DNA of 16,013 nt, the filler included, from an uncultured virus (IMG/VR IMGVR_UViG_2061766007_003579) (lineage: Duplodnaviria; Heunggongvirae; Uroviricota; Caudoviricetes). It is 2 parts of one record of this genome, joined end to end, with 100 filler letters (N's around TTAATTAATTAA, not from the genome) between each part and the next. Parts side by side here need not be neighbours in the genome. Positions count along the whole stretch, not along the records: positions 1 to 11,889 come from IMGVR_UViG_2061766007_003579; 1 more part is not named here. One strand, given 5' to 3'. Made by a program: the position numbers and the translations under genes. The notes under the pieces are model-generated. The model made no database searches. It was not told where the DNA came from and was given only the letters and a program-made list of their open reading frames with translations. Each line of letters begins with the position of its first letter. Positions within the stretch are counted from its first letter, which is position 1. Of this stretch, positions 1-15,887 are shown in pieces.

Positions 1-2
1 AT

Positions 3-304
3 GGAAACGGAGTCTTCATTGCAGTAGCCCGGGGTTCATCTAACAATCAGCAGAAGATTCTTAGAAGCTCAAACGGTTCAGATTGGACTCATGTGGCTAC
101 AGTCACCACATATGGCAGTAGACTCGCTTATGGAAATGGCACCTGGAGACTTTCATATCAAGGTCAGGTTGCAGAGAACTACTTTGATTCAACAAACAAT
201 GGTTCTTCTTGGACGGATATGGGAAAAACCACTTATGCTGGTTGGTGTTATGGAAATGGTGTTTGGGCCAATGGGCAGGGAAACATCATATTTGACGGGA
301 CACA
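3..304 (+). CDS. Partial beta-propeller (YGNG / Asp-box-like repeats), probably part of a large fibre or receptor-binding protein
   Basis: Frame is open from base 3 to the gap: GNGVFIAV...RSSNGSDW...AYGNGTW...STNNGSSW...CYGNGVW. It shows repeated YGNG and S-x-N-G-x-x-W motifs. Confidence 0.6.
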
Positions 305-314
305 NNNNNNNNNN

Positions 315-529
315 CGGCACCTGGAGACTTTCATATCAAGGTCAGACAGCAGAGAACTACTTTGATTCAACAAACAATGGTTCATCTTGGACGGATATGG
401 GGAAAACCACTTATGCTGGTTGGTGTTATGGTAATGGTGTTTGGGCCAATGGGCAGGGAAACATCATNNNNNNNNNNTGGCACTTGGAGACTCTCATATC
501 AAGGTCAGACAGCAGAGAACTACTTTGAT
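315..529 (+). repeat. Two further variant copies (315-467, 478-529) of the propeller fragment, separated by 10-N gaps
   Basis: Near-identical to about 137-290 with SNPs (caggttgcagag vs cagacagcagag; ctt vs ctc). Confidence 0.9.
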
Positions 530-540
530 NNNNNNNNNNG

Positions 541-959
541 TCCTTGGTATATCAGGATTCGAACACCTCCTCGCGTCAGGGAATGAGCAAGACCGTTTAC
601 TGTAATGGCTATTACTTCAGAAGCCAATCCGGTATGGAGAGTTCAGGAAGCAATCATTCATTCACCTGCTTGTACAGTGCGGATCTGGTCAACTGGTCCA
701 CCGCATTTTCATTGACGGCTTCTCAGACAAGTTCAACGACACTTGCAAGCGCAAGAGGAATGATCGGTGTCCAGGACGTAGGTGTCTTCATTGTGGGAGG
801 AAACATCTGCAAGAAATGTGGAACAAGCGCATATTCGGATTCCGACTGGACAATAGCGACAGTAGGCAGTTTGCAGATAACCTATGACTACACCGTTTAT
901 CCAGTCGGTGCAAACCTTCTGGATGGCAGCAAGGCGGTCATAGCAACGATTTTATCCAG
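541..959 (+). CDS. Partial fibre or receptor-binding protein segment (shaft A, upstream part)
   Basis: Open Ser/Thr/Gly-rich frame with an Asp-box-like YSADLVNW motif. Its last ~160 nt are repeated with SNPs from 970 onward. Confidence 0.55.
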
Positions 960-969
960 NNNNNNNNNN

Positions 970-1826
970 GGAAACATCTGCAAGAAATGTGCAACAAGCT
1001 CGTATTCGGATTCCGACTGGACAATAGCGACGGTAGGCAGTTTGCAGATAACCTATGACTACACCGTCTATCCAGTCGGCGCAAACCTTCTGGATGGCAG
1101 CAAGGCGGTCATAGCAACGATTATATCCAGCCACAGTGCGTGGAGGACCTCAAAGACTGTCCTCAGCTCGATAAGCCTCAACCCGACAGCCTACTACCGG
1201 TTCAGGGAGTTCAGGCAGAACAATGCGGTCATCTCCTCCTTTGATGCAAGGAAATACACTTCCGGGACCTCGTTCAGGATTCTGTTCACGAAATACGACG
1301 GAACGGGGCTGGACATCTCCAGTCCGTCTTCCGGGTCATATAGCTACAACGCGAAATGGAACGGGACGCTTTTCATCGTGTTTCTTAACGGAAGTGCAGT
1401 CGGATCGTTCTCAACTGCTGATTATCTTACAGCGACACACACCATATCCTTCACTCCGGTGGGTCAGCTGGATGCGATTCTGGTCAAGGATGTCCTGCCC
1501 AAATCGGACAGCCAGTACTCTTTGGGTGAGCAGGGAAACGAGTTCGCCTCGGCCTACATCGACAACATCTACGGCAATGTGAACGGCAATGTCACAGGCA
1601 ATTCCGGTTCAACCGATCTCGTGAGGTCTTTGGATTCGAGAAGCACCAACCCGGAACCGGGAGCAGTACCCACAGGCTTGGCGCTGGCATTCAAGTCAAA
1701 TTCCGCCATCGGAATCTCAGGGCATGGCACATACTGCGGTCTTCTCACTTTCCGTCCGTATGGGTCGGCAACCGATTTCTCCGGAGGTCCTGTGCACAGG
1801 ATCGCGTTCTGTCAGGACGGGGCGGT
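970..1826 (+). CDS. Partial phage tail-fibre-like protein: shaft A + GN repeat + knob-like tip K1
   Basis: Gap-free frame containing DVLPKSDSQYSLG..F.SAYI, GNVNGNVTGNSGS and DSRSTNP...FKSNSAIGISG..YCGLLTFRPYG..DFSGGPVHRIAF. These motifs are typical of phage tail-fibre shafts and knobs. Confidence 0.7.
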
Positions 1827-1898
1827 NNNNNNNNNNACTGGATGCGATTCTGGTCAAGGATGTCCTGCCCAAGTCGGACAGCCAGTANNNNNNNNNNC

Positions 1899-2111
1899 TT
1901 GACGCTGGCATTCAAGTCGAATTCCGCCATCGGAATCTCAGGGCATGGCACATACTGCGGCCTTCTCACTTTCCGTCCGTACGGGTCAGCCACCGACTTC
2001 TCCGGAGGTCCTGTGCACAGGATTGCGTTCTGTCAGGACGGGGCGGTTATGCATCAGACGGGAGACGGCAACGGATGGAGCTCTTGGAGCTATCCGAGCG
2101 CTTGGAACTAG
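1899..2111 (+). CDS. 3' end of tail-fibre-like gene with tip K1 (variant copy)
   Basis: LTLAFKSNSAIG...GDGNGWSSWSYPSAWN, stop TAG 2109-2111. Contiguous with the downstream radical SAM start. Confidence 0.7.
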   Translation: MTLAFKSNSAIGISGHGTYCGLLTFRPYGSATDFSGGPVHRIAFCQDGAVMHQTGDGNGWSSWSYPSAWN

Positions 2112-2119: not shown

Positions 2120-2344
2120 ATGATCAGAAACCTTGAGGAGTTTCCGGGACTCAACTGCACGATCAACACCACGGAGCAGTGCAACCTCAGATGCAGGTAC
2201 TGCTATGAGGTGAGCAAGCGGTCGCGGAACATCGACTTCGATCTGTGCAGGAGATTCATCGATATGGTCACCGGGTCGCAGGAGCAGTTCACTCCGATGA
2301 TGAGGAAACTTGCCTCGGAGGGCATGATATTCGACTTCATCGGA
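2120..2344 (+). CDS. Radical SAM maturase, 5' part of a second copy (cut by gap)
   Basis: AGGAGG at 2110-2115, ATG at 2120, CNLRCRYC motif. Four conservative aa differences from 5811-6989 over 75 aa. Confidence 0.9.
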
Positions 2345-3248: not shown

Positions 3249-3362
3249 GAGGACGATGCCAAAGTCTTCTTTGATGTCGGCTGTCAGTTTCTGTCCTCCA
3301 TTCTTTTCGCGAAATACATAAGGAGCAGTACATGTCCCTTGAATCAGGAAACAAAGCGGTAG
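3249..3362 (+). CDS. 3' part of the 68-aa accessory protein (variant copy)
   Basis: EDDAKVFFDVGCQFLSSILFAKYIRSSTCPLNQETKR*, homologous to 8077-8283. Confidence 0.7.
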   Translation, partial: EDDAKVFFDVGCQFLSSILFAKYIRSSTCPLNQETKR

Positions 3363-3756
3363 CATCAGAGGTTCAATCAATCATTAACAGCCTCTATGCC
3401 GCTAGGTCTAACAGGGGCATGGCCAACGGCGCTAAGCCCTCAATCAGCGCAGGAGACTCTGTCAAAGCATCCGACATCAATTCTGCGATCACCACTGCAA
3501 AGGGGAGTTTCTCCGGAAGCAACGGCTGGATATATTATTCATCAGACATTCTCGCCTATGTCGTGGCCGGTCAGCTGATGCGTTCCTCAGAGATCAAGGC
3601 CCTGCAGCAGGTCCAGCAGGACACACTCTACCTTGCCAGATGCTCATCCGGTTGCTATGGGAACTGCATCTCGGGATGCTCCAACTCGACATGCACACAA
3701 TCATGCACATCGACATGCCGTAACGGATGCAACAGGAACTGCGGGAGCGCCGGATG
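3332..3756 (+). CDS. CxxxC-repeat Cys-rich protein, partial copy 1
   Basis: AAGGAG upstream of ATG 3332. A Cys-free 103-aa N-terminus is followed by CSSGCYGNCISGC..., cut by a gap. Confidence 0.85.
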
Positions 3757-4152: not shown

Positions 4153-4163
4153 NNNNNNNNNNG

Positions 4164-4938
4164 GGAACGTTGTCTCTAGGTTCACTGATCAATTTCAGCT
4201 CCTCGAATATCGGAAACCTCACTCCCGCATATAAGTTCGATGACATATACATCGGCAATACTAGAAGCGGACAGGCTATAAGCTTCGAGGGCAGCGACAT
4301 TGCATCAGCGTCATTGTCTTGGACAAAGGTCGGAAGTAATGCCGGATCCAGTTCAGTAACCTCAGGTATCACCAAGATCATATATGGAGGCACCGGACAG
4401 CCTCTGAGCCTTTATGTGGGAACAACGGCATACACCGTTGGTACGGATGATCTATTCACTGCATTGGGCATCTCTTTCACCCCATCTGCCAATCTGGCGA
4501 AAGGTGTCAGGTTCGATGACATGTATCCGATGAACAATGATGTGTCGATAGGCACTCAGGGGAATCCAGTTAAGTCGATACACGCTGTCAGCGTCAACGC
4601 AAATACCTTCAATGGCAATCTTTCCGGTAATGTCAACGGTAATGTCACTGGTGATGTGAGCGGCAATTCAGGCTCGTCAGACCGGATCAACTCTCCTGAT
4701 ACAAGGAGCTCAAACCCGGCACCAAACACGATTTCAACAGGGTTGTTTTTGGATTTCAAGTCAAATTCGGCCATAGGAATCTCCGGTCACGGAAGTTATT
4801 GCGGACTTCTCACGTTCCGCCCGTACGGTTCACCGACTGATTTCTCCGGAGGGCCGGTTCACAGGATAGCCTTTTGTGAGGACGGTGCGATTCTGCATCA
4901 GACAGGTAATTCAAGCGGATGGGGTTCCTGGAGTTATC
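4164..4938 (+). CDS. Partial tail-fibre-like protein: shaft B + GN repeat + tip K1 variant
   Basis: Gap-free: DDMYPMNNDVSIGTQGN...FNGNLSGNVNGNVTGDVSGNSGS...DFKSNSAIGISGHGSYCGLLTFRPYG...GWGSWSY. Confidence 0.7.
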
Positions 4939-4949
4939 NNNNNNNNNNT

Positions 4950-5798
4950 TACATCGGTAACACAAGAAGCGGACAGGCTATAAGTTTCGAGGGTAGCGAC
5001 ATAGCATCTGCGTCATTGTCTTGGACAAAAGTCGGAAGTAATGCCGGATCCATTTCAGTAACCTCAGGTATTACCAAGATCATATACGGCGGTACAGGAC
5101 AGCCTCTGAGCCTTTATGTGGGTACAACGGCATACACCGTTGGTACGGATGATCTCTTCACTGCATTGAGCATCTCATTCACCCCCTCCGCCAATCTGGC
5201 GAAAGGTGTCAGGTTCGATGACATGTATCCCATGAACAACGATGTGTCGATAGGCACTCAGGGAAATCCCGTCAAGTCGGTACACGCCGTCAGCGTCAAT
5301 GCAAACACCTTCAACGGCAATCTCACAGGAAACGCCGACACCGCAACCAATGCGACAAACGCCAACAGGGACCGTAACGGAATGAGCTTGACTGTCCCGA
5401 GCTATGGAACAACAAGCTCGACGGGTTACATCAAGATCAATATCAATTCCGAGACCAGCTGGATGACAAGGTTCACGGTCAGGCTATATCAGGGATACGT
5501 CGGATATGACATCGCATTCCAGGGATACAACTACGGATCCAACCACTGGTATTCGCCGACGGCTGAGCTGATAGCGGGAACCGGAAATATCACAGTCTAT
5601 TTTGGCTACGATGCGGATTGGAAGCTATGGGTCGCGATTCCGGGTGGCAGCTATACCGGCTTGAAGATTCTGGACGTGGTGAACGGATATACGCAGGTCA
5701 CGGATTTTGCTGACAAGTTTCAGATTTCCGTGGTCTCAAGCCTTTCCGGGACCATCCAGTCAACTCAGACAATTTACCGTACGGCCTGTTGGGCTTAA
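4950..5798 (+). CDS. 3' part of tail-fibre-like protein: shaft B + different C-terminal tip K2
   Basis: The first 375 nt match 4248-4622. Then TGNADTATNATNA and an aromatic beta-rich domain ending TIYRTACWA*, TAA 5796-5798. Confidence 0.7.
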   Translation, partial: YIGNTRSGQAISFEGSDIASASLSWTKVGSNAGSISVTSGITKIIYGGTGQPLSLYVGTTAYTVGTDDLFTALSISFTPSANLAKGVRFDDMYPMNNDVSIGTQGNPVKSVHAVSVNANTFNGNLTGNADTATNATNANRDRNGMSLTVPSYGTTSSTGYIKININSETSWMTRFTVRLYQGYVGYDIAFQGYNYGSNHWYSPTAELIAGTGNITVYFGYDADWKLWVAIPGGSYTGLKILDVVNGYTQVTDFADKFQISVVSSLSGTIQSTQTIYRTACWA

Positions 5799-5810
5799 AG
5801 GAGGAGAAAG

Positions 5811-6989
5811 GTGATAAGAAACCTTGAGGAATTCCCGGGACTCAACTGCACAATCAACACCACTGAGCAGTGCAACCTCAGATGCAAGTATTGCTATGAG
5901 GTCAGCAAGCGGTCTAGGAACATCGACTTTGAGCTGTGCAGGAAATTCATAGACATGGTCACCGGTTCTCAGGAGCAGTTCACACCTATGATGAAGAAAC
6001 TCGCGTCAGAAGGCATGATCTTCGACTTCATAGGCGGTGACAGCTTCATGGACCCTGCCCTGCTTGAACGAATTGCCTTATACATCGCATACCGTCTGAA
6101 TGCGGTGAGACACCCGGCAAGGAACAGATGGCGAATGTCCGTCAGCACAAATGGAACCCTGTTCAAGAACCCGGAAGTAAGACACTTCTGTGAGAAATGG
6201 AGGGACCTTCTTTCTGTGGGAGTCTCAATTGACGGTTGTCCGGAGATTCATGACAAATACCGTGTATTTCCCAATGGTGAGGGTTCTATGGATAAGATCA
6301 GACAGTGGCTTCCGTGGTACCGGGAGATATTCCCAATCCAGAGCAGAAGCACCAAATCCACCTGTTCCAGGGCTTCAATCCCCTATCTTTACGACTCTCT
6401 TGTCTATATGCATGAGGAGCTTGGATTTAATTGGATAAACCAGAACTTCATCATGGAGGACACGGGTTGTACAGAAGAAGACTATAAACTTTTGGACAAG
6501 CAGATGGAGAAATGCGTCCGATACGTGATCGATCACCGAAAAGAGATTTACTGGGGTATGATTGACCGTCAGTACCTCCAGAGGAGAAACCCTGATGACC
6601 CGATACCAGATATCGGACGATGCGGTTCAGGGTGTATGCCTTGTCTTTCATTGGATGGCCTAATCTACCCCTGCTTCCGCTGGCTCCCGATTTCGCAGCC
6701 CGATGGCGCTGATCCAAAGGCGGCCATAAGCGGTGATGTGAACACGGGCATTTGGTTTCCGGGAGCGATGGATCTGATACTGGAGAAATCCAAGCGCTCC
6801 GAATGCACCAAGGATCCGAAATGCCTGAAATGTGAATTCGAGCCATGCTGCCCGTTCTGCATCGGTGGGTGTTATGCGGAGTTCGGAGATTTCATAAGGA
6901 CAACACACATCTGCGAGATTACAAAGCTTCAAGCCAAATGGACTGAGACTTACTGGAGGGAATATGAGAGTCTTGAAAATGTCGGATGA
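5811..6989 (+). CDS. Radical SAM/SPASM peptide maturase resembling the CXXX-repeat target family (392 aa)
   Basis: AGGAGG then GTG start. CxxxCxxC (CNLRCKYC, aa 21-28), FIGGD, STNG and SIDG..EIHDKYR motifs. SPASM-type CX11GX4C and CX2CX5CX2CX3C...C. A CxxxC-repeat protein lies nearby. Confidence 0.92.
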   Translation: MIRNLEEFPGLNCTINTTEQCNLRCKYCYEVSKRSRNIDFELCRKFIDMVTGSQEQFTPMMKKLASEGMIFDFIGGDSFMDPALLERIALYIAYRLNAVRHPARNRWRMSVSTNGTLFKNPEVRHFCEKWRDLLSVGVSIDGCPEIHDKYRVFPNGEGSMDKIRQWLPWYREIFPIQSRSTKSTCSRASIPYLYDSLVYMHEELGFNWINQNFIMEDTGCTEEDYKLLDKQMEKCVRYVIDHRKEIYWGMIDRQYLQRRNPDDPIPDIGRCGSGCMPCLSLDGLIYPCFRWLPISQPDGADPKAAISGDVNTGIWFPGAMDLILEKSKRSECTKDPKCLKCEFEPCCPFCIGGCYAEFGDFIRTTHICEITKLQAKWTETYWREYESLENVG

Positions 6990-7161
6990 TCTGTCGAAAC
7001 GCTATCTGACTGTCAGGGAAAGCTTCGACTCTGCCCGGCAGACACTGATGACGGCATTGCCGGATGTTCCAAATGGAGAACGTCACGACTTCTATGTGAA
7101 TGCATTCAGGAATCTCTGTGACCGGAGCATAGCACTTGCAGCGGTGGAGGAGGAGATATTC
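6964..7161 (+). CDS. Accessory protein 1, partial (start 6964 or 6979)
   Basis: Overlaps the rSAM stop, with GGAGG upstream. The frame is conserved in the second copy at 7402. Confidence 0.7.
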
Positions 7162-7172
7162 NNNNNNNNNNT

Positions 7173-7427
7173 GATGTGAAAACAGGGAAGTGGTTCCCGG
7201 GGGCGATGGACCTGATACTGGAGAAATCCAAACGCTCCGAATGCACCAAAGATCCGAAATGCCTGAGATGCGAATTTGAGCCATGCTGCCCGTTCTGCAT
7301 CGGAGGGTGCTATGCGGAGTTCGGGGATTTCATAAGGACAACACATATCTGTGAGATAACAAAGCTTCAAGCTAAATGGACTGAGACTTACTGGAGGGAA
7401 TATGAGAGTCTTGAAAATGTCGGATGA
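7173..7427 (+). CDS. Radical SAM/SPASM 3' part, variant copy
   Basis: Matches 6735-6989 with mostly synonymous changes (KCLRC vs KCLKC). Confidence 0.9.
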   Translation, partial: DVKTGKWFPGAMDLILEKSKRSECTKDPKCLRCEFEPCCPFCIGGCYAEFGDFIRTTHICEITKLQAKWTETYWREYESLENVG

Positions 7428-7654
7428 TCTGTCGAAACGCTATCTGACTGTCAGGGAAAGTTTCGACTCTGCCCGGCAGACACTGTTGACAGCTCTGCCA
7501 GACGTTCCAAACGGAGAACGTCACAACTTCTATGTGAATGCATTCAAGGATCTCTGTGACCGGTGCATCGCTCTTTCGGCTGTTGAGGAGGAGATCTTCA
7601 ACACACATGGAATCACGGGTTTCGAGAAGATCGAGCTCAACGAAATATACACCT
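7402..7654 (+). CDS. Accessory protein 1, second copy, cut by the 16-N gap
   Basis: MSDDLSKRYLTVRESFDSARQ...FEKIELNEIYT. The next codon starts with T and could be a stop. Confidence 0.7.
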
Positions 7655-7671
7655 NNNNNNNNNNNNNNNNC

Positions 7672-7890
7672 GCGGCCATCGTACGTGCCAATAACGAGTC
7701 ATCCGACGAACAGACCTATGAGATCGACGGAAAGAGGATGACTCTGACCGAGTATCAGAATATGATCACCAAGATGCAGCTGGATGCCCAATATGAGGAG
7801 GCTAAACTGAGACAGCAGGAAACTGAGGTCCAGGCATCAAGGCTGGCTGCACTGGAGAAACAGGCCGAGGAGGAACAGGAGAATGTGTGA
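7672..7890 (+). CDS. C-terminus of an acidic, coiled-coil-like accessory protein 2
   Basis: TYEIDGKRMTLTEYQNMITKMQLDAQYEEAKLRQQE...EEEQENV*. The frame is preserved in four variant copies. Confidence 0.7.
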   Translation, partial: AAIVRANNESSDEQTYEIDGKRMTLTEYQNMITKMQLDAQYEEAKLRQQETEVQASRLAALEKQAEEEQENV

Positions 7891-7907
7891 GAGAACNNNN
7901 NNNNNNG

Positions 7908-8084
7908 ACCTATGAGATCGACGGAAAGAAGATGACTCTGACCGAATACCAGAACATGATCACCAAGATGCAGCTGGATGCCCAGTATGAGGAGGCAAAG
8001 CTTAGGAAGCAGGAATCCGAAGTTCAGGCATCAAGGCTGAACGCACTGGAGAAACAGGCAGAGGAGGAACAGGAGAATGTGTGA
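7908..8084 (+). CDS. Accessory protein 2 C-terminus, variant copy
   Basis: Near-identical to 7714-7890. Confidence 0.7.
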   Translation, partial: TYEIDGKKMTLTEYQNMITKMQLDAQYEEAKLRKQESEVQASRLNALEKQAEEEQENV

Positions 8085-8283
8085 GAGACCCTGTGAGGAG
8101 ATAAGAAACCTCGACGCTATGCACCGCGGTGTGATGTCGGTTCTTTCCGGCAGAACTGAGTTCACGGATGAGGATGACGCAAGGGCTTTCTTTGATGCCG
8201 GCTGTCAGTTTCTGTCATCTATTCTTTTCGCTAAATACAGAAGGAGCAGCACATGTCCCTTGAAGCTGGAAACAAAGCAGTAG
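8077..8283 (+). CDS. 68-aa accessory protein 3
   Basis: AGGAG-type RBS, with the ATG overlapping the upstream stop (ATGTGTGA). Conserved in three complete copies with mainly synonymous differences. Confidence 0.75.
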   Translation: MCERPCEEIRNLDAMHRGVMSVLSGRTEFTDEDDARAFFDAGCQFLSSILFAKYRRSSTCPLKLETKQ

Positions 8284-8317
8284 CATCAGAAGTTCAATCA
8301 ATTGTGAACAGCCTCTA
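8253..8317 (+). CDS. CxxxC-repeat protein, 5' stub (copy 2)
   Basis: MSLEAGNKAVASEVQSIVNSL, with synonymous differences from the 8674 copy. Confidence 0.7.
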
Positions 8318-8328
8318 NNNNNNNNNNA

Positions 8329-8505
8329 ACCTATGAAATCGACGGAAAGAAGATGACTCTGACCGAGTACCAGAACATGATCACCAAGATGCAGTTGGAT
8401 GCCCAGTACGAGGAGGCAAAACTGAGGCAGCAGGAATCCGAAGTCCAGGCATCAAGGCTGACTGCACTGGAGAAGCAGGCAGAGGAGGAGCAGGGAAATG
8501 TGTGA
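8329..8505 (+). CDS. Accessory protein 2 C-terminus, variant copy
   Basis: Same 177-nt segment as 7908-8084 with SNPs, ending EEEQGNV*. Confidence 0.7.
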   Translation, partial: TYEIDGKKMTLTEYQNMITKMQLDAQYEEAKLRQQESEVQASRLTALEKQAEEEQGNV

Positions 8506-8704
8506 GAGAACCTGTGAGGAGATGCGGAACCTCGATGCAATGCACCGCGGTGTGATGTCGGTTCTTTCCGGAAGGACTGAGTTTACAGATGAGGACGATG
8601 CAAGGACTTTCTTTGATGTTGGCTGCCAGTTTCTGTCCTCTATTCTTTTTGCGAAATACAGAAGGAGCAGCACATGTCCCTTGAAGCAGGAAATAAAGCA
8701 GTAG
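8498..8704 (+). CDS. 68-aa accessory protein 3, variant
   Basis: MCERTCEEMRNLDAMHRGVMSVLSGRTEF..., homologous to 8077-8283. Confidence 0.75.
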   Translation: MCERTCEEMRNLDAMHRGVMSVLSGRTEFTDEDDARTFFDVGCQFLSSILFAKYRRSSTCPLKQEIKQ

Positions 8705-9011
8705 CATCAGAAGTTCAATCAATTGTGAACAGCCTCTATACCGCAAGGTCAAACAGAGGTATGGCCAACAGCACAAAGCCCTCAATCAACGCAGGAGCTT
8801 CTATCAAAGCAGCCGACATCAATACTGCGATTATAACCGCAAAAGGAGATTTCTCCGGAAGCAGCGGTTGGATTAATTATTCATCAGATATTCTCTCTTA
8901 TGTTGTGGCCGGTCAGCTGATGAGGTCATCAGAGATCAAGGCACTGCAGCAGGTCCAGCAAGACACTCTCTACCTTGCAAGATGTTCCTCGGGTTGCTAC
9001 GGAAACTGCAT
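8674..9011 (+). CDS. CxxxC-repeat protein, partial copy 3
   Basis: AAGGAG RBS, full N-terminal region, then CSSGCYGNC before the gap. Confidence 0.85.
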
Positions 9012-9022
9012 NNNNNNNNNNA

Positions 9023-9109
9023 AAGCTAAGACAGCAAGAATCCGAGATTCAGGCATCGAGGCTGACTGCGTTGGAGAAACAGGCCGAGGAGGAACAGGAG
9101 AATGTGTGA
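9023..9109 (+). CDS. Accessory protein 2 C-terminus, variant copy
   Basis: KLRQQESEIQASRLTALEKQAEEEQENV*. Confidence 0.65.
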   Translation, partial: KLRQQESEIQASRLTALEKQAEEEQENV

Positions 9110-9305
9110 GAGACCCTGTGATGAGATAAGAAACCTCGACGCAATGCACCAAGGTGTGATGTCAGTTCTTTCCGGCAGGACTGAGTTTACAGATGAGGAC
9201 GATGCAAGGACTTTCTTTGATGTCGGCTGCCAGTTTCTTTCCTCAATTCTTTTCGCGAAATACAAAAGGAGCAGCATATGTCCTTTGAGGTCGGAGCAAC
9301 AATAG
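9102..9305 (+). CDS. 67-aa accessory protein 3, variant
   Basis: Homologous to 8077-8283, with an altered C-terminus where it overlaps the next gene. Confidence 0.75.
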   Translation: MCERPCDEIRNLDAMHQGVMSVLSGRTEFTDEDDARTFFDVGCQFLSSILFAKYKRSSICPLRSEQQ

Positions 9306-10009
9306 TCGCATCGGAAATCCAATCAGTTGTGGACAGCCTATATACCGCAAGGTCAAACAGAGGCATGACCAACAGTACAAAGCCTTCATTCTCTGCGGGC
9401 TCAAAAGCGGAAGCTAGTGAAATGAATAGTGCCATAAAAACAGCTAAAGGGGATTTCTCCGGAAGCAACGGCTGGATTTATTATTCATCCGACATTCTTG
9501 CCTATGTCGTGGCAGGCCAGCTGATGAGGTCATCAGAAATCAAGGCCCTGCAGCAGGTCCAGCAAGACACACTATATCTTGCAAGGTGCTCCTCCGGTTG
9601 CTACGGGAACTGCATTTCCGGATGTTCCAATTCAACATGCACCCAATCATGCACATCTACTTGCCGTAACGGATGCAACAACAACTGTGGGAGCGCAGGA
9701 TGCTCTGGGTACTGTTACACAAGCTGTACTGCCAGTTGTTTCCCAAATTGCAAAGGAGGAATCACAATCGCATCGACCTGTAAGAGCGGTTGCGGTAAGA
9801 ACTGTACCGGAGCTTGTGGTTCAGGCTGCAATAATACCTGTGGCGGAGGATGTAGTAGCGGATGTTCAGGTAGTTGCAGCAACTACTGCATAAGCGGATG
9901 TGGATCTGCCTGCGTCAGCAGTTGCCAGACATACTGTGTCTTAGGTTGCAAGAACTCATGCACAAGTGGGTGCAGTAACACCAACCGTATCGGGTCCATA
10001 TCAACCTGA
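9278..10009 (+). CDS. Complete CxxxC-repeat Cys-rich protein (243 aa), putative radical SAM substrate
   Basis: AAGGAG RBS. aa 1-103 are Cys-free. aa 104-243 (from nt 9587) hold 31 Cys, 27 of them starting exact Cxxx units rich in S/G/T/N. Confidence 0.9.
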   Translation: MSFEVGATIVASEIQSVVDSLYTARSNRGMTNSTKPSFSAGSKAEASEMNSAIKTAKGDFSGSNGWIYYSSDILAYVVAGQLMRSSEIKALQQVQQDTLYLARCSSGCYGNCISGCSNSTCTQSCTSTCRNGCNNNCGSAGCSGYCYTSCTASCFPNCKGGITIASTCKSGCGKNCTGACGSGCNNTCGGGCSSGCSGSCSNYCISGCGSACVSSCQTYCVLGCKNSCTSGCSNTNRIGSIST

Positions 10010-10011
10010 CT

Positions 10012-10242
10012 TCACTTGGGTGCGTTGATTCGATCCAGCAGCTCCTTTACCTTTCTGATGTCCTCATTGATGAGTATGGATACATCCAATTCTGGATTCG
10101 ACATGATCTTTGCAGCATAGCGTTCAGCCGTGAACTCCAGCGACTCCTCTGTGATCATCATTCCGTTTTCCGCAAGACGCCCCTTCAAGAAAGAGACCAT
10201 ATGTTCTCTGTCAGGGTTTTTGTTTTCGTGGATTGTATTCAT
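10012..10242 (-). CDS. Hypothetical protein (76 aa)
   Basis: GGAGGTGG RBS before the ATG. Convergent with the Cys-rich gene, stops 2 nt apart. Confidence 0.7.
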   Translation of the reverse strand: MNTIHENKNPDREHMVSFLKGRLAENGMMITEESLEFTAERYAAKIMSNPELDVSILINEDIRKVKELLDRINAPK

Positions 10243-10408
10243 ATTTCCACCTCCACAACCCTATACAAAAAAAGTGTCAAAAATATTGCGGATTTTTCTT
10301 GTATTCAGACAACTTTTTTGACTTTTTTTCGCGATAACACTTAACATGCTACTTAAAAATAAACCAGGAAGTTTTTCTGCCCAATTCCGAAAGCTTAACC
10401 ACTGCCTG

Positions 10409-10417
10409 TGATATAAT
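10409..10417 (+). promoter_or_regulatory. Extended -10 promoter (TG-A-TATAAT)
   Basis: Exact TGnTATAAT, 6 nt before ATG 10424. Confidence 0.6.
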
Positions 10418-10423
10418 AGAATC

Positions 10424-12461: not shown

Positions 12462-12854
12462 ATGACCGAAGACCAGAAAAACCAGATTAGGCAGTTGAGA
12501 GCTCAGGGCCTTACCATCAACAAGATTGCAGATGGATTAGGCCTTAACAAGGATACTGTAAAAACCTTCTGTCGGAGAAATGGACTGAATGGAACTGCGA
12601 TTGATAAGCGTCCACATCCCAGTGGTGTTATCCAAACTTGTATGGAGTGTGGAAAACTAATTGATCAGGAACCACAAAGGAAGAAGCGTCGCTTCTGTTC
12701 TGATAAATGCAGAATTGCATGGTTCAACCATAACAGAAACAGAGTCACATCCCAATGCCCATGCTGCGGAAAAACCTTTCAGCACAACGGGGCCAACTCT
12801 TTCTGCTCACGTCAGTGTTATATCACAAACCGCTTTCACGGAGGCCAAATATGA
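12462..12854 (+). CDS. HTH plus Zn-finger protein of the type found upstream of tandem serine recombinases
   Basis: GGAGG RBS. N-terminal HTH (IRQLRAQGLTINKIADGLGLNKDTVKTFCRR), then CxxC...FCSxxC twice. Confidence 0.85.
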   Translation: MTEDQKNQIRQLRAQGLTINKIADGLGLNKDTVKTFCRRNGLNGTAIDKRPHPSGVIQTCMECGKLIDQEPQRKKRRFCSDKCRIAWFNHNRNRVTSQCPCCGKTFQHNGANSFCSRQCYITNRFHGGQI

Positions 12855-13009: not shown

Positions 13010-13060
13010 CACTTTACTAAATAGGGATTTAGAGTGATATATACAACAGGAGATTCCAAG

Positions 13061-14371
13061 ATGAATGTTACGGTACTTGAACCAAAGAGAACGTTGGTTC
13101 CGAAGCGCATAAGGGTGGCAGCTTATGCACGAGTATCTGTGGAAAAAGAAACCTCCGAACACTCATTCAAAGCCCAATCCGAACATTTCATAAAACTACT
13201 CAACTCCAACCCGCTCTGGATTAACGCCGGCCTTTACACTGACTTAGGCATTACAGGAACAAAGGCAGTCAGACCTGGATTCTCAAGACTGATTGAAGAT
13301 TGTGAGAAAGGACTGATTGACCTGGTGATCACCAAAAGCGTCAGCAGGTTTGCAAGGAACACAGTTGACCTTCTGAATACGGTCAGACATCTATCAGAAC
13401 TCTGTATCAATGTACACTTTGAGCGGGAAAACATGGACTCAATTTCCGGAAAAGGCGAGTTCGTCATGACGTTGCTTGCATCGTTTGCTCAAGAGGAAGC
13501 CCGCTCGATGTCAGAGAACATGAAGTGGACCTTCCGCAAGGGCTTTGAGAAAGGGACAGGGAACTGGTCTCACCTATACGGCTATAAGCGTGAAGACGGA
13601 AACCTGACAATCGATGAGCATGAGGCAGAAGTAATCAGGAGCATCTACTCAATGTACCTTGATGGGAAAGGCCCCCATGCCATTGTTGCAGAACTCAAGA
13701 GAATGGGAGTAACAAGAAGAGACGGCACACTATTCACCTACAACCGAATCGTCAAAGTGCTTAATCAGGAGAAATATGCCGGCAACTCATTGCTGCAGAA
13801 AACATACCGCGAAAACTTCATAACAAAGAAAAGGATGGAGAACAAGGGACAGTTACCCATGTACTTCGCAGAAGGAACCCACCCCGCCATCATTGACCAG
13901 TCTGTGCTGGACTCAGTAAGAGAACTCAAAGCTCAGCGAAGAGAACTGGGATACATGGCAGGAAGGCAGGAGAGGTTCTCCTGTTTTACTGGAAAGATCT
14001 TCTGTGCTGAATGCGGCCGCACCTACAGGCGCTGCAACAAAGGTGGAAGATGGAAGCGTTACATCTGGAGATGCGGTTCCAAGATAACGAATGGCACTTC
14101 AGCATGTGCGGCCCAGAACCTCCCGGAGAAGTTACTCATTGAAGAATCCTGCAGAGTTCTAGGCCTGGAGTCCTTTAATCCTGAGATTATTCAAGCTCAA
14201 GTGGACTCAATCGTCGTATCTAACCCCTGCACCATCACTTTCACCCTCAAGGATGGACTCATTGAATCCAGAAGCTGGAGCTACGATGAAAAAACCAAAT
14301 CGTATAAGGAGGTCGATAGTGGCAAACAGAGTCACGGTGATTCAGCCGACGCTGACACTATTCTCATCTAA
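13061..14371 (+). CDS. Large serine recombinase 1 (436 aa)
   Basis: AGGAG RBS, ATG 13061. YARVS catalytic motif, TKSVSRFARN, recombinase domain (LNQEKYAG) and Zn ribbon CAECG...WRC. Confidence 0.95.
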   Translation: MNVTVLEPKRTLVPKRIRVAAYARVSVEKETSEHSFKAQSEHFIKLLNSNPLWINAGLYTDLGITGTKAVRPGFSRLIEDCEKGLIDLVITKSVSRFARNTVDLLNTVRHLSELCINVHFERENMDSISGKGEFVMTLLASFAQEEARSMSENMKWTFRKGFEKGTGNWSHLYGYKREDGNLTIDEHEAEVIRSIYSMYLDGKGPHAIVAELKRMGVTRRDGTLFTYNRIVKVLNQEKYAGNSLLQKTYRENFITKKRMENKGQLPMYFAEGTHPAIIDQSVLDSVRELKAQRRELGYMAGRQERFSCFTGKIFCAECGRTYRRCNKGGRWKRYIWRCGSKITNGTSACAAQNLPEKLLIEESCRVLGLESFNPEIIQAQVDSIVVSNPCTITFTLKDGLIESRSWSYDEKTKSYKEVDSGKQSHGDSADADTILI

Positions 14372-15887
14372 GCCAATTGAGAACAAGACCAAACGCAGGG
14401 TTGCTGGATATGCCAGGGTCTCTACAGACAAAGATGAACAGTACACCTCTTACGAAGCCCAGGTGGAATACTACAAGCGATTCATAAAGTCCAATGACCA
14501 GTGGGAGTTCGTAGACGTGTATACGGATGAAGGTATATCTGGAACGCATACGGCAAACCGTGACGGCTTCAACCGAATGATTGCTGATGCCCTTTCCGGA
14601 AAAATTGACCTCATTCTAACTAAATCGGTTTCACGATTTGCAAGGAACACGGTGGATAGCCTCACAAAGATCAGAGAGCTGAAAGACAACGGTGTCGAAG
14701 TGTTTTTCGAGAAAGAGAACATCTGGACATTTGAAGGTAGCGGCGAGCTGCTTCTGACAATCATGAGCTCTTTAGCACAGGAGGAATCCAGATCCATATC
14801 GGAGAACATACGCTGGGGCTGGCAACGCAGTTTTGAGGAAGGGAAAGTATCACTGGCCTACTCCAAATTCCTTGGGTACGACAAAAATCCTGAAGGCGGG
14901 CTGAAACTCAATCCTCAACAAGCACCTATAGTCAGAAAAATCTATGATCAGTTCCTCTCTGGCAGAAGTATCAACTCCATAACAGCAGAATTGAATGTCC
15001 TCGGCCCCAAGAAGCCGTTCGGAGACGGTATTTGGACTAACAACAACATCAAAAGCATACTCACCAACGAGAAGTACACAGGCAACGCCATACTGCAGAA
15101 ATCCTACAAGACCGACCTTCTTTCAAAGCGCAAGGTTAATAATGGCGAAGTAAAAAAATATTATGTGGCCGATGCCCACGAGGCCATTGTCTCCCAGGAA
15201 GAGTTCGATATTGTCCAGGAAGAACTCAAGCGAAGGTCAGCAAAATACTCCAACAAGACCCTGTGCAAGAGTGTGTTCTCGGACAGGGTTATATGTGGAG
15301 ATTGCGGACACATCTTCGGTGCAAAGCTCTGGCACTCCACAGACAAATACCGGACCACAGTCTGGCAGTGCAACAATAAGTTCAAAGCAGAAAAGCGCTG
15401 CACCACTCCCCACCTTACTGAGAATGCATTGAAGGAAACCTTCATGAAAGCGGTCAACATGATTGCAGTTGACAGAGAATACGTAAAAGAAGATCTCACC
15501 TACATTCGCGATGTGATCCTTGCTACAGCCTCTCTTGAGACGGAATTGAATGATGCAAAGAAACTCGCAGAAGATTCATCCTTCGTTGTCAGGAATCTTG
15601 TAGGTGGGGCTCCGATTACGGATACCGACAGATTAGAAAGGCTTTTAGCGGATTGTCAGAAGAAAGCAGATAAGGTTGATGAGCTTCAAGAGAAACTCCG
15701 TGATCTGAATATGCGCCGCGCCTCTATTACCCGCTTCATTGAAAAGATAGACTCTCTTCATCCATTCTATCAGGAATTCAGCGATTCCCTTTTCAGGGGG
15801 ATGTGTGACTGCATGATCGTCCACTCCAAGGCAAAGATTATTGTAAGATTCCACTCAGGCTACGAGGTGGAAATCAACAGCAACTAA
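14319..15887 (+). CDS. Large serine recombinase 2 (522 aa)
   Basis: AAGGAGG RBS, GTG 14319. YARVST, TKSVSRFARN, LTNEKYTG, Zn ribbon CGDCG...WQC and a C-terminal coiled coil. Confidence 0.95.
   Translation: MANRVTVIQPTLTLFSSKPIENKTKRRVAGYARVSTDKDEQYTSYEAQVEYYKRFIKSNDQWEFVDVYTDEGISGTHTANRDGFNRMIADALSGKIDLILTKSVSRFARNTVDSLTKIRELKDNGVEVFFEKENIWTFEGSGELLLTIMSSLAQEESRSISENIRWGWQRSFEEGKVSLAYSKFLGYDKNPEGGLKLNPQQAPIVRKIYDQFLSGRSINSITAELNVLGPKKPFGDGIWTNNNIKSILTNEKYTGNAILQKSYKTDLLSKRKVNNGEVKKYYVADAHEAIVSQEEFDIVQEELKRRSAKYSNKTLCKSVFSDRVICGDCGHIFGAKLWHSTDKYRTTVWQCNNKFKAEKRCTTPHLTENALKETFMKAVNMIAVDREYVKEDLTYIRDVILATASLETELNDAKKLAEDSSFVVRNLVGGAPITDTDRLERLLADCQKKADKVDELQEKLRDLNMRRASITRFIEKIDSLHPFYQEFSDSLFRGMCDCMIVHSKAKIIVRFHSGYEVEINSN

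What the first reader, a model, noticed from the sequence alone, without database searches (positions are those of the whole stretch)
4950..10009. Tail-fibre gene coupled to a radical SAM/SPASM maturase and a 31-Cys CxxxC-repeat protein
Seen: in gap-free sequence (4949-7161) a fibre-like gene stops 12 nt before a complete rSAM/SPASM gene, and a different fibre end sits 8 nt before another rSAM copy (2111 to 2120). Downstream lie small overlapping ORFs and a protein with 31 Cys in CxxxC spacing. Known: SPASM rSAMs form Cys-to-carbon thioethers in sacti- and ranthipeptides. CXXX-repeat target/maturase pairs exist as TIGRFAM families (TIGR04114/TIGR04115 as I recall them, not searched), and I know of no established function for them. 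Inference: this is a RiPP-like modification system inside a phage or tailocin adsorption module, possibly cross-linking or metal-loading a virion fibre component.
Basis: partly seen in the sequence, partly recalled or inferred. Interest (0 to 1): 0.85.

Follow-up and report, generated by a model that had tools for sequence, protein, structure and literature searches.

The report
Phage radical-SAM enzyme with cysteine-ladder protein
A prophage from ruminant-gut bacteria carries, directly behind its tail-fibre gene, an iron-sulfur "radical SAM" enzyme and a protein with a cysteine at every fourth position that the enzyme probably staples with sulfur-carbon bridges, perhaps as part of the phage tail, though no experiment has tested this.

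Summary
The features are at the stated coordinates. A tail-fibre gene ends at 5798. A complete rSAM/SPASM gene (5811-6989) starts 12 nt later. Three small overlapping ORFs follow, then a 243-aa protein (9278-10009) with 31 Cys, 27 of 30 spacings being exactly 4.

The "second rSAM copy" and the repeated small ORFs are probably strain variants strung into one scaffold, not extra genes. The evidence is the 17 N-runs, neighbouring pieces 80-96% alike, public contigs that skip two of the internal duplicated blocks, and a clean relative (L001) with one copy of each gene.

That relative is a complete siphovirus-type prophage, not a tailocin.

The rSAM's best family is TIGR04115 (CXXX-repeat maturase), at 217 bits against a cut-off of 350. 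It belongs to a divergent sister clade. A Cys-ladder gene accompanies the enzyme in 36 of 43 related loci.

Tail genes flank the pair in most phage loci I annotated. In Margulisiibacteriota the pair sits among housekeeping genes.

The enzyme-substrate pairing is well supported. Thioether chemistry is inferred from related enzymes, including CrpC/CrpA (2026). A role in the virion is plausible but untested.

This scan has flagged the same kind of phage cassette on other DNA. This one is a new variant: the ladder lies downstream and there are three clade-specific helper ORFs.

The parts
1..2111 (+). Fragments (variant pieces separated by 10-N gaps) of the C-terminal part of a very large tail protein or fibre. 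It ends in the 'type-1' tip (1898-2111).
   Evidence: tblastn of the L001 1925-aa tail protein gives 55% identity over 1000-1860 and 93% over 1899-2108. Also phrog_5342 tail fibre, E 3.9e-7.
2120..2344 (+). The 5' 75 codons of a second rSAM allele, cut by the 903-N gap. Most likely a strain variant, not a second gene.
   Evidence: 88% nt identity to 5802-6031; 91.7% to L001.
3332..3756 (+). N-terminal 141 residues of a ladder-protein allele, cut by a 10-N gap.
   Evidence: 84% aa identity to 9278-10009.
4163..4938 (+). Fibre fragment ending in a type-1 tip variant.
   Evidence: phrog_5342 tail fibre, E 1.4e-9; tblastn to the L001 tail protein.
4950..5798 (+). C-terminal part of the tail fibre with the 'type-2' tip. 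The tip cassette (about 5324-5798) is exchanged between co-occurring strains.
   Evidence: Residues from 5322-5795 match distal long-tail-fibre proteins of Vibrio phage QD01 and Aeromonas phage PX29 at 42-44% identity, E 1e-16 and 4e-13. Run X2 contigs diverge into type-1 sequence at 5323 and 5812.
5811..6989 (+). Radical SAM/SPASM maturase, 392 aa. It has no N-terminal RRE domain.
   Evidence: TIGR04115 at 217 bits (cut-off 350), PapB at 120 bits. Pfam Radical_SAM. phrog_1802, E 2e-35. CteB 5WGG, E 5.5e-15, with the alignment starting at CteB residue 101. Cys motifs.
6964..7161 (+). ORF A (about 87-91 aa when complete). Its start overlaps the rSAM end by 26 nt. It is cut here by a gap; a variant copy lies at 7402-7654.
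   Evidence: Conserved in L001, L086 and L087. Only 14 homologues, 57-93% identical, with no Pfam domain.
7172..7654 (+). Redundant variant copy of the rSAM 3' end plus ORF A (scaffold artefact).
   Evidence: 91% identical to 6734-7161. The X1 contig joins 7161 to 7671.
7671..7890 (+). 3' part of ORF B (about 100 aa when complete). Soluble, with a charged helical C-terminus. Its start is hidden by the 16-N gap.
   Evidence: Homologous ORFs in L001 (11374-11718) and L087 (5115-5420). No membrane segment.
7907..9021 (+). Redundant variant copies of the ORF B end, ORF C and the ladder 5' part (scaffold artefact).
   Evidence: Self-similarity of 84-91%. The X4 DNA contig joins 7802 directly to 9022.
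9102..9305 (+). ORF C, 67 aa. Its start overlaps the ORF B stop. Its end overlaps the ladder start by 28 nt.
   Evidence: Conserved in L001 and L087. No family hit.
9278..10009 (+). Cys-ladder protein, 243 aa. It has a roughly 103-aa three-helix N-domain, 31 Cys at period 4 (residues 104-232) and a conserved C-terminal tail (233-243).
   Evidence: Cys count and spacing. Alignments. 61 synonymous against 8 non-synonymous differences in the ladder. Nearest ESM Atlas clusters carry PF27846 and are 82-100% viral.
10012..10242 (-). Conserved 76-aa ORF on the opposite strand, directly after the ladder gene. Function unknown.
   Evidence: Same position in L001, 12610-12834. No family hits.
12462..12854 (+). 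phrog_2308-family small DNA-binding-like protein that precedes the recombinases.
   Evidence: phrog_2308, E 1.7e-33. Same family before the recombinases in L001 and L083.
13034..15887 (+). Two overlapping large serine recombinase genes (13034-14371 and 14253-15887). This is the integration module at the prophage end.
   Evidence: Pfam Resolvase, Recombinase and Zn_ribbon_recom in both. CcrB-like NCBIfam hits.

Best explanation
The window is the tail-fibre end of a temperate siphovirus-type prophage of a ruminant-gut Clostridia bacterium. Its closest relative lies in an Oscillospiraceae genome bin.

Directly behind the fibre gene lies a chain of five genes: rSAM/SPASM enzyme, ORF A, ORF B, ORF C and the Cys-ladder protein. 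The gene starts seen here overlap the ends of the preceding genes, which suggests coupled translation.

Shown:
- The enzyme and the ladder protein form a conserved pair.
- The ladder is a real protein under strong purifying selection.
- The cassette travels with phage tail modules whose fibre tips are swapped between strains.

Inferred:
- Late in infection, in the host cytoplasm, the rSAM abstracts hydrogen atoms. It joins many of the 31 ladder cysteines to nearby carbon atoms as thioether bridges (ranthionine or sactionine). Recognition would be through the conserved third helix of the N-domain and the first rungs, possibly helped by ORFs A-C, because the enzyme has no recognition (RRE) domain of its own.
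- The stapled protein would resist reduction and proteases. It is then most likely built into or onto the tail-fibre region of the virion.

My odds: enzyme-substrate pair about 0.85; thioether chemistry about 0.6; virion or tail component about 0.45.
For: Pairing:
- A CxxxC-rich ORF lies in the same locus in 36 of 43 loci whose rSAM is at least 42% identical (23 of 23 genome loci and 8 of 10 viral loci; 5 of 10 metagenome loci). It is usually directly upstream of the rSAM.
- Six of the seven misses are cut by contig ends.

Chemistry:
- The best NCBIfam families are all Cys-thioether maturases: TIGR04115 at 217 bits, PapB 120, QhpD 71, CcpM 66, SCIFF 63.
- The closest solved structure is the thioether synthase CteB.
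- rSAM and SPASM Cys motifs are present.
- CrpC, a SPASM rSAM, was shown to put thioethers on a 28.8-kDa Cys-rich protein (PMC13692751, sections 8, 12, 14).

Selection:
- Ladder: 61 synonymous against 8 non-synonymous differences. Helix 3: 8 against 1. C-tail: 5 against 0. N-terminal residues 1-79: 28 against 18.
- Residues 80-112 are nearly invariant (31 of 33) in 8 alleles.

Phage late or tail context:
- The L001 contig carries terminase, portal, protease, major head protein, tape measure and a 1925-aa tail protein, then the cassette, then a serine recombinase.
- True TIGR04115 members (458 and 355 bits) sit between the tail-fibre gene and the lysis genes in L027, and between tail genes in L028.
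- L087 has a fibre with a Peptidase_S74 chaperone domain upstream.
- Gene overlaps of 26 and 28 nt and a 12-nt spacer.
- No membrane segment or signal peptide in A, B, C or the ladder.
- No protease or transporter family in the window proteins scanned.
- An RNA-library contig spans fibre, rSAM, ORF A and ORF B. This is only a weak hint, because DNA carry-over is not excluded.
Against: - No experiment exists on this family.
- The window's rSAM is below the TIGR04115 cut-off (217 against 350 bits). The ladder matches no target model above noise.
- Pfam's SPASM model gave no hit at E <= 0.01. The SPASM call rests on motifs and full-length family alignments.
- Structure prediction gave no usable ladder model: pLDDT 43 overall and 25-40 in the ladder. 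The N-domain model (pLDDT 69) has no significant structural match. No fibre-like fold is shown.
- The slot after the fibre gene and before the recombinase is also the classical slot for cargo (moron) genes.
- In 8 of 8 Margulisiibacteriota loci the pair lies among housekeeping genes, each next to an XRE-type regulator, with no Pfam phage structural domain.
- 3 of 11 phage loci (L076, L078, L085) show no tail gene within 7 kb.
- In a ladder of CxxxC units the residue four positions on is another Cys. It is not the Asp, Gln or Thr acceptor known from PapB, CrpC or CteB. The acceptor is therefore unknown.
Confidence: 0.5

Rival explanations
1. Cargo (moron) reading. The cassette is a lysogenic-conversion or accessory module that makes a cross-linked Cys-rich product for the host cell or for release at lysis. 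The product could be metal-binding, antimicrobial or surface-active. It is not a virion part. Its place next to the fibre gene reflects the usual cargo slot.
For: - The cassette sits between the last tail gene and the recombinases, among small ORFs of unknown function and opposite-strand genes.
- The same pair occurs without phage genes in 8 of 8 Margulisiibacteriota loci.
- It lies away from tail genes in L076, L078 and L085.
- The authors of the CrpA paper suggest metal binding (PMC13692751, section 14).
Against: - Same strand as the fibre gene, 12 nt behind it, with overlapping genes.
- In L027 and L028 the pair lies inside the late operon, before the lysis genes or between tail genes.
- It is also present in very large phage contigs of 159-285 kb.
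- No exporter, leader protease or immunity gene family was found. No signal peptide.
Confidence: 0.27
2. Different chemistry. The ladder is not thioether-stapled. The rSAM performs another Cys-directed reaction, such as formylglycine formation as in anaerobic sulfatase maturases. Or the ladder mainly binds metals or Fe-S clusters, with the rSAM acting on only a few sites.
For: - The SPASM superfamily includes anSME. The TIGR03942 hit is 46 bits.
- The ladder offers no canonical acceptor residue at position +4.
- Only the Cys columns, besides the start Met, are invariant across distant ladders.
Against: - The strongest family matches, by a wide margin, are thioether-forming maturases.
- Within the clade the non-Cys ladder residues are also strongly conserved. 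This argues for a defined structure or defined acceptor sites rather than simple metal chelation.
Confidence: 0.13
3. True duplication. The phage really carries two tandem fibre-rSAM-ladder units (1898-3756 and 4950-10009) with different fibre tips, giving two receptor specificities.
For: - Both units are in one scaffold.
- Both tip types occur in one sample, run X2.
- No contig was laid across 1-4948.
Against: - Every join is an N-gap.
- Neighbouring pieces overlap at 80-96% identity, as unrolled assembly bubbles do.
- Two internal duplicated blocks are skipped by public contigs.
- The clean relative L001 has one unit in a 36.7-kb phage contig.
Confidence: 0.1

Closest known systems
CXXX-repeat peptide modification system, defined only by curated HMMs: TIGR04115 maturase, TIGR04114/PF27846 target repeat, TIGR04116 accessory, TIGR04117 and TIGR04118 targets
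   Same: - TIGR04115 is the best family for the rSAM, aligned over positions 5-354 of 359.
- The target has a cysteine at every fourth residue.
- True TIGR04115 members (L027 at 458 bits, L028 at 355 bits) also sit in phage tail modules next to ladder proteins with a homologous N-domain.
   Different: - The window's rSAM scores 217 bits, below the 350 cut-off.
- The ladder hits no target model above noise.
- There is no TIGR04116-like helper. Three clade-specific ORFs (A, B, C) take its place.
- The ladder gene lies downstream of the enzyme, not upstream.
- A post-ladder tail motif is present in this clade but absent in L026, L027 and L028.
- I found no paper on this system.
CrpC/CrpA of Methanococcus voltae (TIGR04463 family; Dieter et al. 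2026, PMC13692751)
   Same: A SPASM rSAM installs thioether (ranthionine) crosslinks on a whole Cys-rich protein of 28.8 kDa. That protein has an N-terminal recognition region and C-terminal Cys repeats. AlphaFold confidence for the Cys region was also low there (sections 8, 12, 14 read).
   Different: - CrpC has an RRE domain. The window enzyme has none.
- CrpA uses 17-residue repeats with C-x-x-Q/D motifs, not a period-4 ladder.
- It is archaeal and cellular. The words 'phage' and 'tail' do not occur in its main text.
- The window rSAM scores only 43 bits on TIGR04463, cut-off 525.
PapB/freyrasin and CteB/SCIFF ranthipeptide maturases
   Same: Second-best NCBIfam family is PapB at 120 bits. 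The closest solved structure is CteB 5WGG, E 5.5e-15. From recall: both make Cys-S to side-chain-carbon bridges in repeated C-x3-acceptor motifs.
   Different: - Those substrates are short secreted peptides with leader peptides. Here the substrate is a 243-aa protein with 31 Cys, and no export or cleavage genes were found.
- Scores are far below the cut-offs (340 and 425 bits).
QhpD/QhpC (quinohemoprotein amine dehydrogenase gamma subunit)
   Same: TIGR03906 hit at 71 bits. From recall: an rSAM/SPASM enzyme staples a structural protein subunit with several Cys thioethers before assembly.
   Different: That is a periplasmic enzyme subunit with a few crosslinks. It has no repeat ladder and no phage context.
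Metal-stabilised tail-fibre tips such as the T4 gp37 needle with His-coordinated iron (recalled, not searched)
   Same: It shows that phage fibre tips can use unusual inorganic or covalent stabilisation. The window's type-2 tip is related to T4-like distal fibre proteins.
   Different: No enzyme-installed crosslink is known there. The ladder here is a separate protein, and its place in the virion is unproven.

Membership tests
TIGR04115 (radical SAM peptide maturase, CXXX-repeat target family) | Score at or above the curated cut-off of 350 bits | tested here: not met
   217 bits, E 5.2e-64. Relatives L027 (458.5) and L028 (355.5) pass. L008 (275), L083 (234) and L084 (202) do not.
TIGR04115 (radical SAM peptide maturase, CXXX-repeat target family) | Best-scoring family, aligned over nearly the full model | tested here: met
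   Top hit, residues 14-376 on model positions 5-354 of 359.
TIGR04115 (radical SAM peptide maturase, CXXX-repeat target family) | Encoded next to a protein with tandem CXXX repeats | tested here: met
   The ladder gene follows at 9278-10009 in the same gene chain. A ladder gene is present in 36 of 43 related loci.
Radical SAM / SPASM superfamily | CX3CX2C cluster motif and a C-terminal 7-8 Cys SPASM motif | tested here: met
   C21/C25/C28; C271-x11-G-x4-C288; C338-x2-C341-x5-C347-x2-C350; C354; C368. Pfam Radical_SAM E 2e-10. The Pfam SPASM model itself gave no hit at E <= 0.01.
CXXX-repeat target (TIGR04114/PF27846, TIGR04117, TIGR04118) | HMM match above the curated cut-off | tested here: inconclusive
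   Only TIGR04118 at E 0.29 (11 bits) and TIGR04117 at E 9.2. No Pfam hit in the local copy. However, a 98%-identical fragment, P0003, carries a precomputed PF27846 hit. The nearest Atlas clusters carry PF27846 in 40-53% of members.
CXXX-repeat target (TIGR04114/PF27846, TIGR04117, TIGR04118) | Cysteine at every fourth residue over a long C-terminal stretch | tested here: met
   31 Cys, 27 of 30 spacings equal to 4.
TIGR04116 (CXXX repeat system accessory protein) | A roughly 90-aa accessory protein matching the model | tested here: not met
   No hit for ORFs A, B or C even at E <= 10. Weak hits only in L005 (E 0.001) and L076 (E 0.034). ORF C against the Zn-ribbon helpers of other loci: hhalign probability 0.3%.
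Classical ranthipeptide/sactipeptide RiPP cluster (PapB, CteB types) | RRE (leader-recognition) domain in or beside the maturase | tested here: not met
   The rSAM core starts at residue 15 and aligns to CteB from residue 101, so there is no N-terminal domain. No PqqD-like hit in ORFs A-C. An RRE-like fold in ORFs A-C was not tested.
Classical ranthipeptide/sactipeptide RiPP cluster (PapB, CteB types) | Short precursor peptide with leader, plus a protease and/or exporter | tested here: not met
   The substrate is 243 aa. No protease or transporter family was found among the 15 window proteins scanned.
Phage tail fibre (upstream gene) | Sequence membership in tail-fibre families and position after the tape measure gene | tested here: met
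   The L001 homologue hits phrog_819 (E 1.9e-74) and many tail-fibre PHROGs, and follows the tape measure gene. Window tips: phrog_5342 and T4-like distal fibre proteins.
Phage tail fibre (upstream gene) | Trimeric fibre or receptor-binding fold | not tested
   No fold was predicted for the fibre.
Virion structural protein (ladder protein) | Presence in purified particles | not testable with these tools
   Needs virion proteomics. Only gene position speaks for it.

The most novel reading that the evidence does not exclude
Phages of gut anaerobes covalently staple a tail appendage. A phage-encoded radical SAM enzyme turns a 31-rung cysteine ladder into a thioether-bridged rod or cap. The product cannot be undone by the reducing, protease-rich gut environment, so it serves as an enzymatic, oxygen-independent substitute for disulfide bonds in a virus particle. 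The appendage travels with exchangeable receptor-binding tips. If true, this would be the first enzyme-installed RiPP-type crosslink in a virion protein.
Probability: 0.35. Interest if true: 0.85.

Novelty: new variant of a known kind. Interest (0 to 1): 0.6.

Why it matters
Radical-SAM thioether chemistry is known from small secreted peptides. It was demonstrated on a large Cys-rich protein substrate in 2026 (CrpC/CrpA).

If phages use it on a protein made with their tail fibres, virions would carry enzyme-made covalent staples. That would be a new principle of particle stability and possibly of host recognition in anoxic habitats.

It would also give a function to the uncharacterised CXXX-repeat families (TIGR04114 to TIGR04118).

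This window adds several things:
- a divergent clade with a different gene order;
- three new helper ORFs;
- evidence that the ladder is the most constrained part of the cassette;
- evidence that the cassette stays fixed while fibre tips are swapped between co-occurring strains;
- a counter-example: chromosomal, multi-copy giant ladders in Margulisiibacteriota, which any general model must explain.

A cultured strain with a true family member in a prophage tail module (Anaerobacterium chartisolvens DSM 27016, L027) makes the question testable.

Tried and rejected
- Whole genome: none is held for the window.
- Close relatives in IMG/VR with single proteins: none for the rSAM or the ladder.
- tblastn of the ladder against 50,697 phage records: no match, though the low-complexity filter is on.
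- ORF C as a shortened homologue of the Zn-ribbon helper that precedes ladder genes in Treponema-type and viral loci. A MAFFT alignment looked suggestive, but hhalign gave probability 0.3%. Rejected.
- ORFs A, B and C against NCBIfam and Pfam at E <= 10: only noise.
- ORF A aligned to the small ORFs that overlap the rSAM end in other loci: 13-16% identity, so no case for homology.
- AlphaFold2 of the whole ladder protein (14-sequence alignment): mean pLDDT 43, so not usable.
- AlphaFold2 of the N-domain (28 sequences): pLDDT 69, three helices. Foldseek against BFVD gave 0 matches at E <= 0.001. The best were two uncharacterised gut Myoviridae proteins at E 0.035-0.04.
- N-domain profile against PDB sequences: nothing below E 0.35.
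- Promoter and terminator scan of 4900-11400: counts at chance level.
- Search for ladders fused to fibre proteins among fetched loci: the only long CxC-rich proteins (L032, L036, L038) are unrelated secreted proteins. The N-domain alignment was too divergent for a collection scan.
- RNA-library contigs cover the cassette, but DNA carry-over cannot be excluded. They also cover the opposite-strand gene. I do not count this as shown transcription.
- Parts of 7276-9244 without cover in runs X1, X4 and X5 are not evidence of absence.
- Literature: no paper for 'CXXX repeat' plus 'radical SAM'. None for TIGR04114, TIGR04116, TIGR04117, PF27846 or 'CXXX-repeat'. None for SPASM, prophage, cysteine-rich and tail together.
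- TIGR04115 occurs in one unrelated pig-microbiome paper (listing only).
- Two papers holding 'radical SAM', 'tail fiber' and 'thioether' were irrelevant (passages read).

Full report
**What is in the window**

The 16,013-base window is a scaffold, not a finished sequence. It holds 17 runs of N: 13 of 10 N, one of 16, one of 903 and two of 44. Neighbouring pieces repeat each other at 80-96% identity, for example 6734-7161 against 7172-7599, 7908-8317 against 8329-8738, and 8418-9011 against 9022-9615.

- A fibre-like ORF stops at 5798.
- After 12 nt and an AGGAGG ribosome-binding site, a 392-aa ORF starts at GTG 5811.
- A different fibre end stops at 2111, 8 nt before an ATG at 2120. That ATG opens a second copy of the same enzyme, cut after 75 codons by the 903-N gap.
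- The ORF 9278-10009 encodes 243 residues with 31 cysteines. 27 of the 30 Cys-to-Cys spacings are exactly four residues.

**Copies or artefacts**

I read the repeated pieces as strain variants that the assembler strung in series.

Contigs from public runs laid on 4949-10300 give direct evidence:
- One 3,104-nt contig (run X1) covers 4949-7161. It then continues at 7671 with 150 other letters between, skipping 7172-7654.
- One DNA contig (run X4) joins 7802 directly to 9022, skipping 1,219 bases of repeated ORF B, ORF C and ladder starts.

The closest clean relative, L001, lies in an Oscillospiraceae genome bin from buffalo rumen, with an rSAM 88% identical. It has one copy of each gene, in this order: tape measure, 1925-aa tail protein, rSAM, ORF A, ORF B, ORF C, ladder protein.

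For the larger block 1898-3756 no bridging contig was laid, so a true tandem duplication keeps about 10% probability.

In run X2, contigs diverge at 5323 and at 5812 into the type-1 fibre end. Both fibre tips therefore occur upstream of the same enzyme gene in one sample. The tip (about 5324-5798) behaves as an exchangeable cassette.

**Phage, not tailocin**

The L001 contig is 36.7 kb. Upstream of the tail genes it carries a primase, small and large terminase, portal, head maturation protease and an HK97-type major head protein. It ends in a serine recombinase.

The window ends with a phrog_2308 gene and two overlapping large serine recombinases.

The upstream gene is a real fibre:
- The L001 protein hits phrog_819 (E 1.9e-74) and many tail-fibre families, and carries collagen-like repeats.
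- The window's type-1 tip hits phrog_5342 (E 1.4e-9).
- The type-2 tip is 42-44% identical to distal long-tail-fibre proteins of Vibrio phage QD01 and Aeromonas phage PX29 (E 1e-16 and 4e-13).
- In L087 (rSAM 82% identical) the upstream gene is yet another fibre type, with a Peptidase_S74 chaperone domain.

The stretch is found in bovine and goat gut metagenomes: 20 rows in 13 studies, four of them holding at least half of its words.

**The enzyme**

| NCBIfam family | Bits | Cut-off |
|---|---|---|
| TIGR04115, CXXX-repeat target family maturase (model positions 5-354 of 359) | 217 | 350 |
| PapB ranthipeptide maturase | 120 | 340 |
| QhpD | 71 | 453 |
| CcpM | 66 | 500 |
| SCIFF maturase | 63 | 425 |
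| TIGR04463, the CrpC family | 43 | 525 |

- Pfam finds the Radical_SAM domain but not its SPASM model at E <= 0.01.
- The sequence has CX3CX2C at C21/C25/C28 and SPASM-type motifs. These cysteines are invariant or nearly so in 26 homologues.
- The closest solved structure is the thioether synthase CteB (5WGG, E 5.5e-15). The alignment starts at CteB residue 101, so the window enzyme lacks the N-terminal leader-recognition domain.
- The family is large: 512 proteins at E <= 0.001 among 1,710 candidates, nearly all without a source annotation.
- Relatives in cultured phages are distant, 26-31% identical. They are mostly Erwinia, Salmonella and Cronobacter phages, and those listed have genomes of 224-249 kb.

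**The ladder protein**

It has three parts:
1. An N-domain of about 103 residues, predicted as three helices.
2. The ladder, residues 104-232. The residues between the Cys are mostly Ser, Gly, Asn and Thr.
3. An 11-residue C-terminal tail.

It hits no Pfam, NCBIfam or PHROG model above noise. A 98%-identical fragment, P0003, carries a precomputed PF27846 hit. The nearest ESM Atlas clusters are named 'modification target Cys-rich repeat', carry PF27846 in 40-53% of members and are 82-100% viral.

Close homologues are rare. There are four in the 5.8-billion-protein collection. The N-domain has three hits among 1.84 billion representatives.

At motif level the N-domain aligns across all ladder proteins I collected, whether phage-borne or bacterial. 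A post-ladder motif (Cys, two residues, Ser/Thr, one residue, Arg, then Ile/Tyr/His/Val) recurs in the window's clade, in Treponema-type and viral loci, and in Margulisiibacteriota. It is absent in the true TIGR04115 loci L026-L028.

Selection between the window and L001:

| Region | Synonymous codon differences | Non-synonymous |
|---|---|---|
| Ladder (104-232) | 61 | 8 |
| Helix 3 (80-103) | 8 | 1 |
| C-terminal tail (233-243) | 5 | 0 |
| First 79 residues | 28 | 18 |
| rSAM | 145 | 49 |

The ladder and the helix before it are the most constrained parts of the cassette. 31 of the 33 residues 80-112 are invariant in eight alleles.

**The small ORFs**

- ORF A is about 90 aa. Its start overlaps the rSAM end by 26 nt.
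- ORF B is about 100 aa.
- ORF C is 67 aa. It overlaps the ladder start by 28 nt.

All three are conserved in L001 and L087. None has a membrane segment or a family hit.

ORF A has only 14 homologues, all 57-93% identical.

I could not show homology to the helpers of other loci. Those are a roughly 105-aa Zn-ribbon protein in Treponema-type and some viral loci, and a roughly 90-aa protein with weak TIGR04116 similarity in the L076 phage contig and in L005.

**Is the pairing and the tail link general?**

Among 43 loci whose rSAM is at least 42% identical to the window's, 36 encode a CxxxC-rich ORF nearby. Six of the seven misses are cut by contig ends. The seventh, L077, has an rSAM with a large insertion. 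The ladder gene usually lies directly upstream of the enzyme. Only the window, L001 and L087 have the enzyme first.

PHROG annotation of 11 loci:
- Tail genes within 7 kb in L001, L011, L027, L028, L083 and L084, with a weak hit in L003.
- A prophage end with an integrase in L006.
- No tail hits in L076, L078 or L085.

L027 (isolate Anaerobacterium chartisolvens DSM 27016) and L028 carry true TIGR04115 members at 458 and 355 bits. In L027 the order is baseplate, tail fibre, ladder, two small ORFs, rSAM, endolysin, holin. In L028 tail genes lie on both sides.

In Cronobacter phage CR5 the related rSAM lies among genes annotated as virion structural proteins and a tail assembly chaperone. It sits near a 69-aa protein with a single CxxxC.

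Against a universal tail link:
- Eight of eight Margulisiibacteriota loci place ladder proteins of 463-742 aa with 77-137 Cys, together with their rSAM, among housekeeping genes.
- In each a divergent XRE-type regulator lies directly upstream of the ladder gene.
- None has a phage structural Pfam hit.
- Several such loci occur per genome.

**Mechanism**

The enzyme-substrate pairing is the firm part.

The chemistry is inferred from the nearest families, all of which join Cys sulfur to a carbon of a nearby residue. It also rests on the 2026 demonstration that CrpC installs ranthionine bridges on the 28.8-kDa Cys-rich protein CrpA. There an N-terminal region serves recognition, and a second protein raises the yield (PMC13692751; abstract and sections 8, 12 and 14 read). 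That paper's main text does not contain the words 'phage', 'tail' or 'TIGR04115'.

By analogy I propose three steps:
1. The conserved helix 3 and the first rungs dock the ladder protein on the enzyme, possibly with ORFs A-C standing in for the missing recognition domain.
2. Many rungs are stapled in the cytoplasm.
3. The product, which has no export signal, is used where the gene order suggests: with the tail fibre.

Weak points:
- The acceptor residue is unknown, because position +4 is itself Cys.
- No fold could be predicted.
- The gene slot is also the classical cargo slot.

**Novelty**

The kind of system is catalogued by HMM curators but, in my searches, is not described in any paper.

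Earlier notes of this scan describe the same sort of phage cassette on other DNA, and none on this sequence. They are unchecked notes. One gave me the lead to the CrpC paper, which I then read.

This window is a new variant. It has a divergent enzyme clade, reversed gene order, three private helper ORFs and a rare N-domain. It adds selection data, the tip-swapping observation and the Margulisiibacteriota counter-example.

Noticed in passing
window 5324-5811: The fibre tip is an exchangeable cassette. Contigs of one DNA run (X2) leave the window's type-2 sequence at 5323 and re-join at 5812, reading the type-1 tip instead. Strains with different receptor-binding tips but the same rSAM cassette therefore co-occur. 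A third, S74-chaperone fibre type sits upstream in L087.
   Followed up: partly
L005, L008, L009, L010, L012, L014, L020, L033 (Margulisiibacteriota / Termititenax genome bins): Giant ladder proteins of 463-742 aa with 77-137 Cys, each with its own rSAM and a divergent XRE-type regulator directly upstream. They are inserted at several housekeeping sites per genome. Four loci also carry a second, different radical SAM gene nearby. No phage genes are around them.
   Followed up: partly
L001 and G001:C142 (L098); window 10012-12400: No endolysin or holin family was found anywhere on the 36.7-kb phage contig or in the window, although head, tail and integration modules are complete. The lysis genes of this phage group are unrecognised or lie elsewhere.
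   Followed up: no
L077:10001-12043: The rSAM homologue on a 195-kb viral contig is 681 aa, with extra sequence starting right after the first two cysteines of the CX3CX2C motif. This looks like an intein-type insertion. It is the only complete locus without a ladder gene nearby.
   Followed up: no
L094:983-2103; L088:454-2853; L089:9013-12081: The ladder architecture is modular. In L094 the N-domain (131 aa) and a pure ladder (234 aa, 53 Cys) are separate ORFs. L088 and L089 carry two ladder genes each, one without an N-domain.
   Followed up: no
L096 (Cronobacter phage CR5, 127127-140170): Next to the distant rSAM homologue CR5_153 lie a second rSAM-annotated gene and a 69-aa protein (CR5_156). 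CR5_156 has an N-terminal helix and a single Cys-x3-Cys, a possible one-rung target. They sit among genes annotated as virion structural protein and tail assembly chaperone.
   Followed up: partly
window 13034-15887: Two large serine recombinase genes overlap by 119 nt. The same pair, preceded by a phrog_2308 gene, ends the related viral contig L079.
   Followed up: no
L001:4215-9992: The 1925-aa tail protein combines long collagen-like Gly-X-Y runs, repeated Trp-containing units and the fibre tip in one polypeptide.
   Followed up: no
L078:3039-6351: Three further radical SAM genes stand in a row a few kb upstream of the ladder and rSAM pair on a 159-kb viral contig.
   Followed up: no
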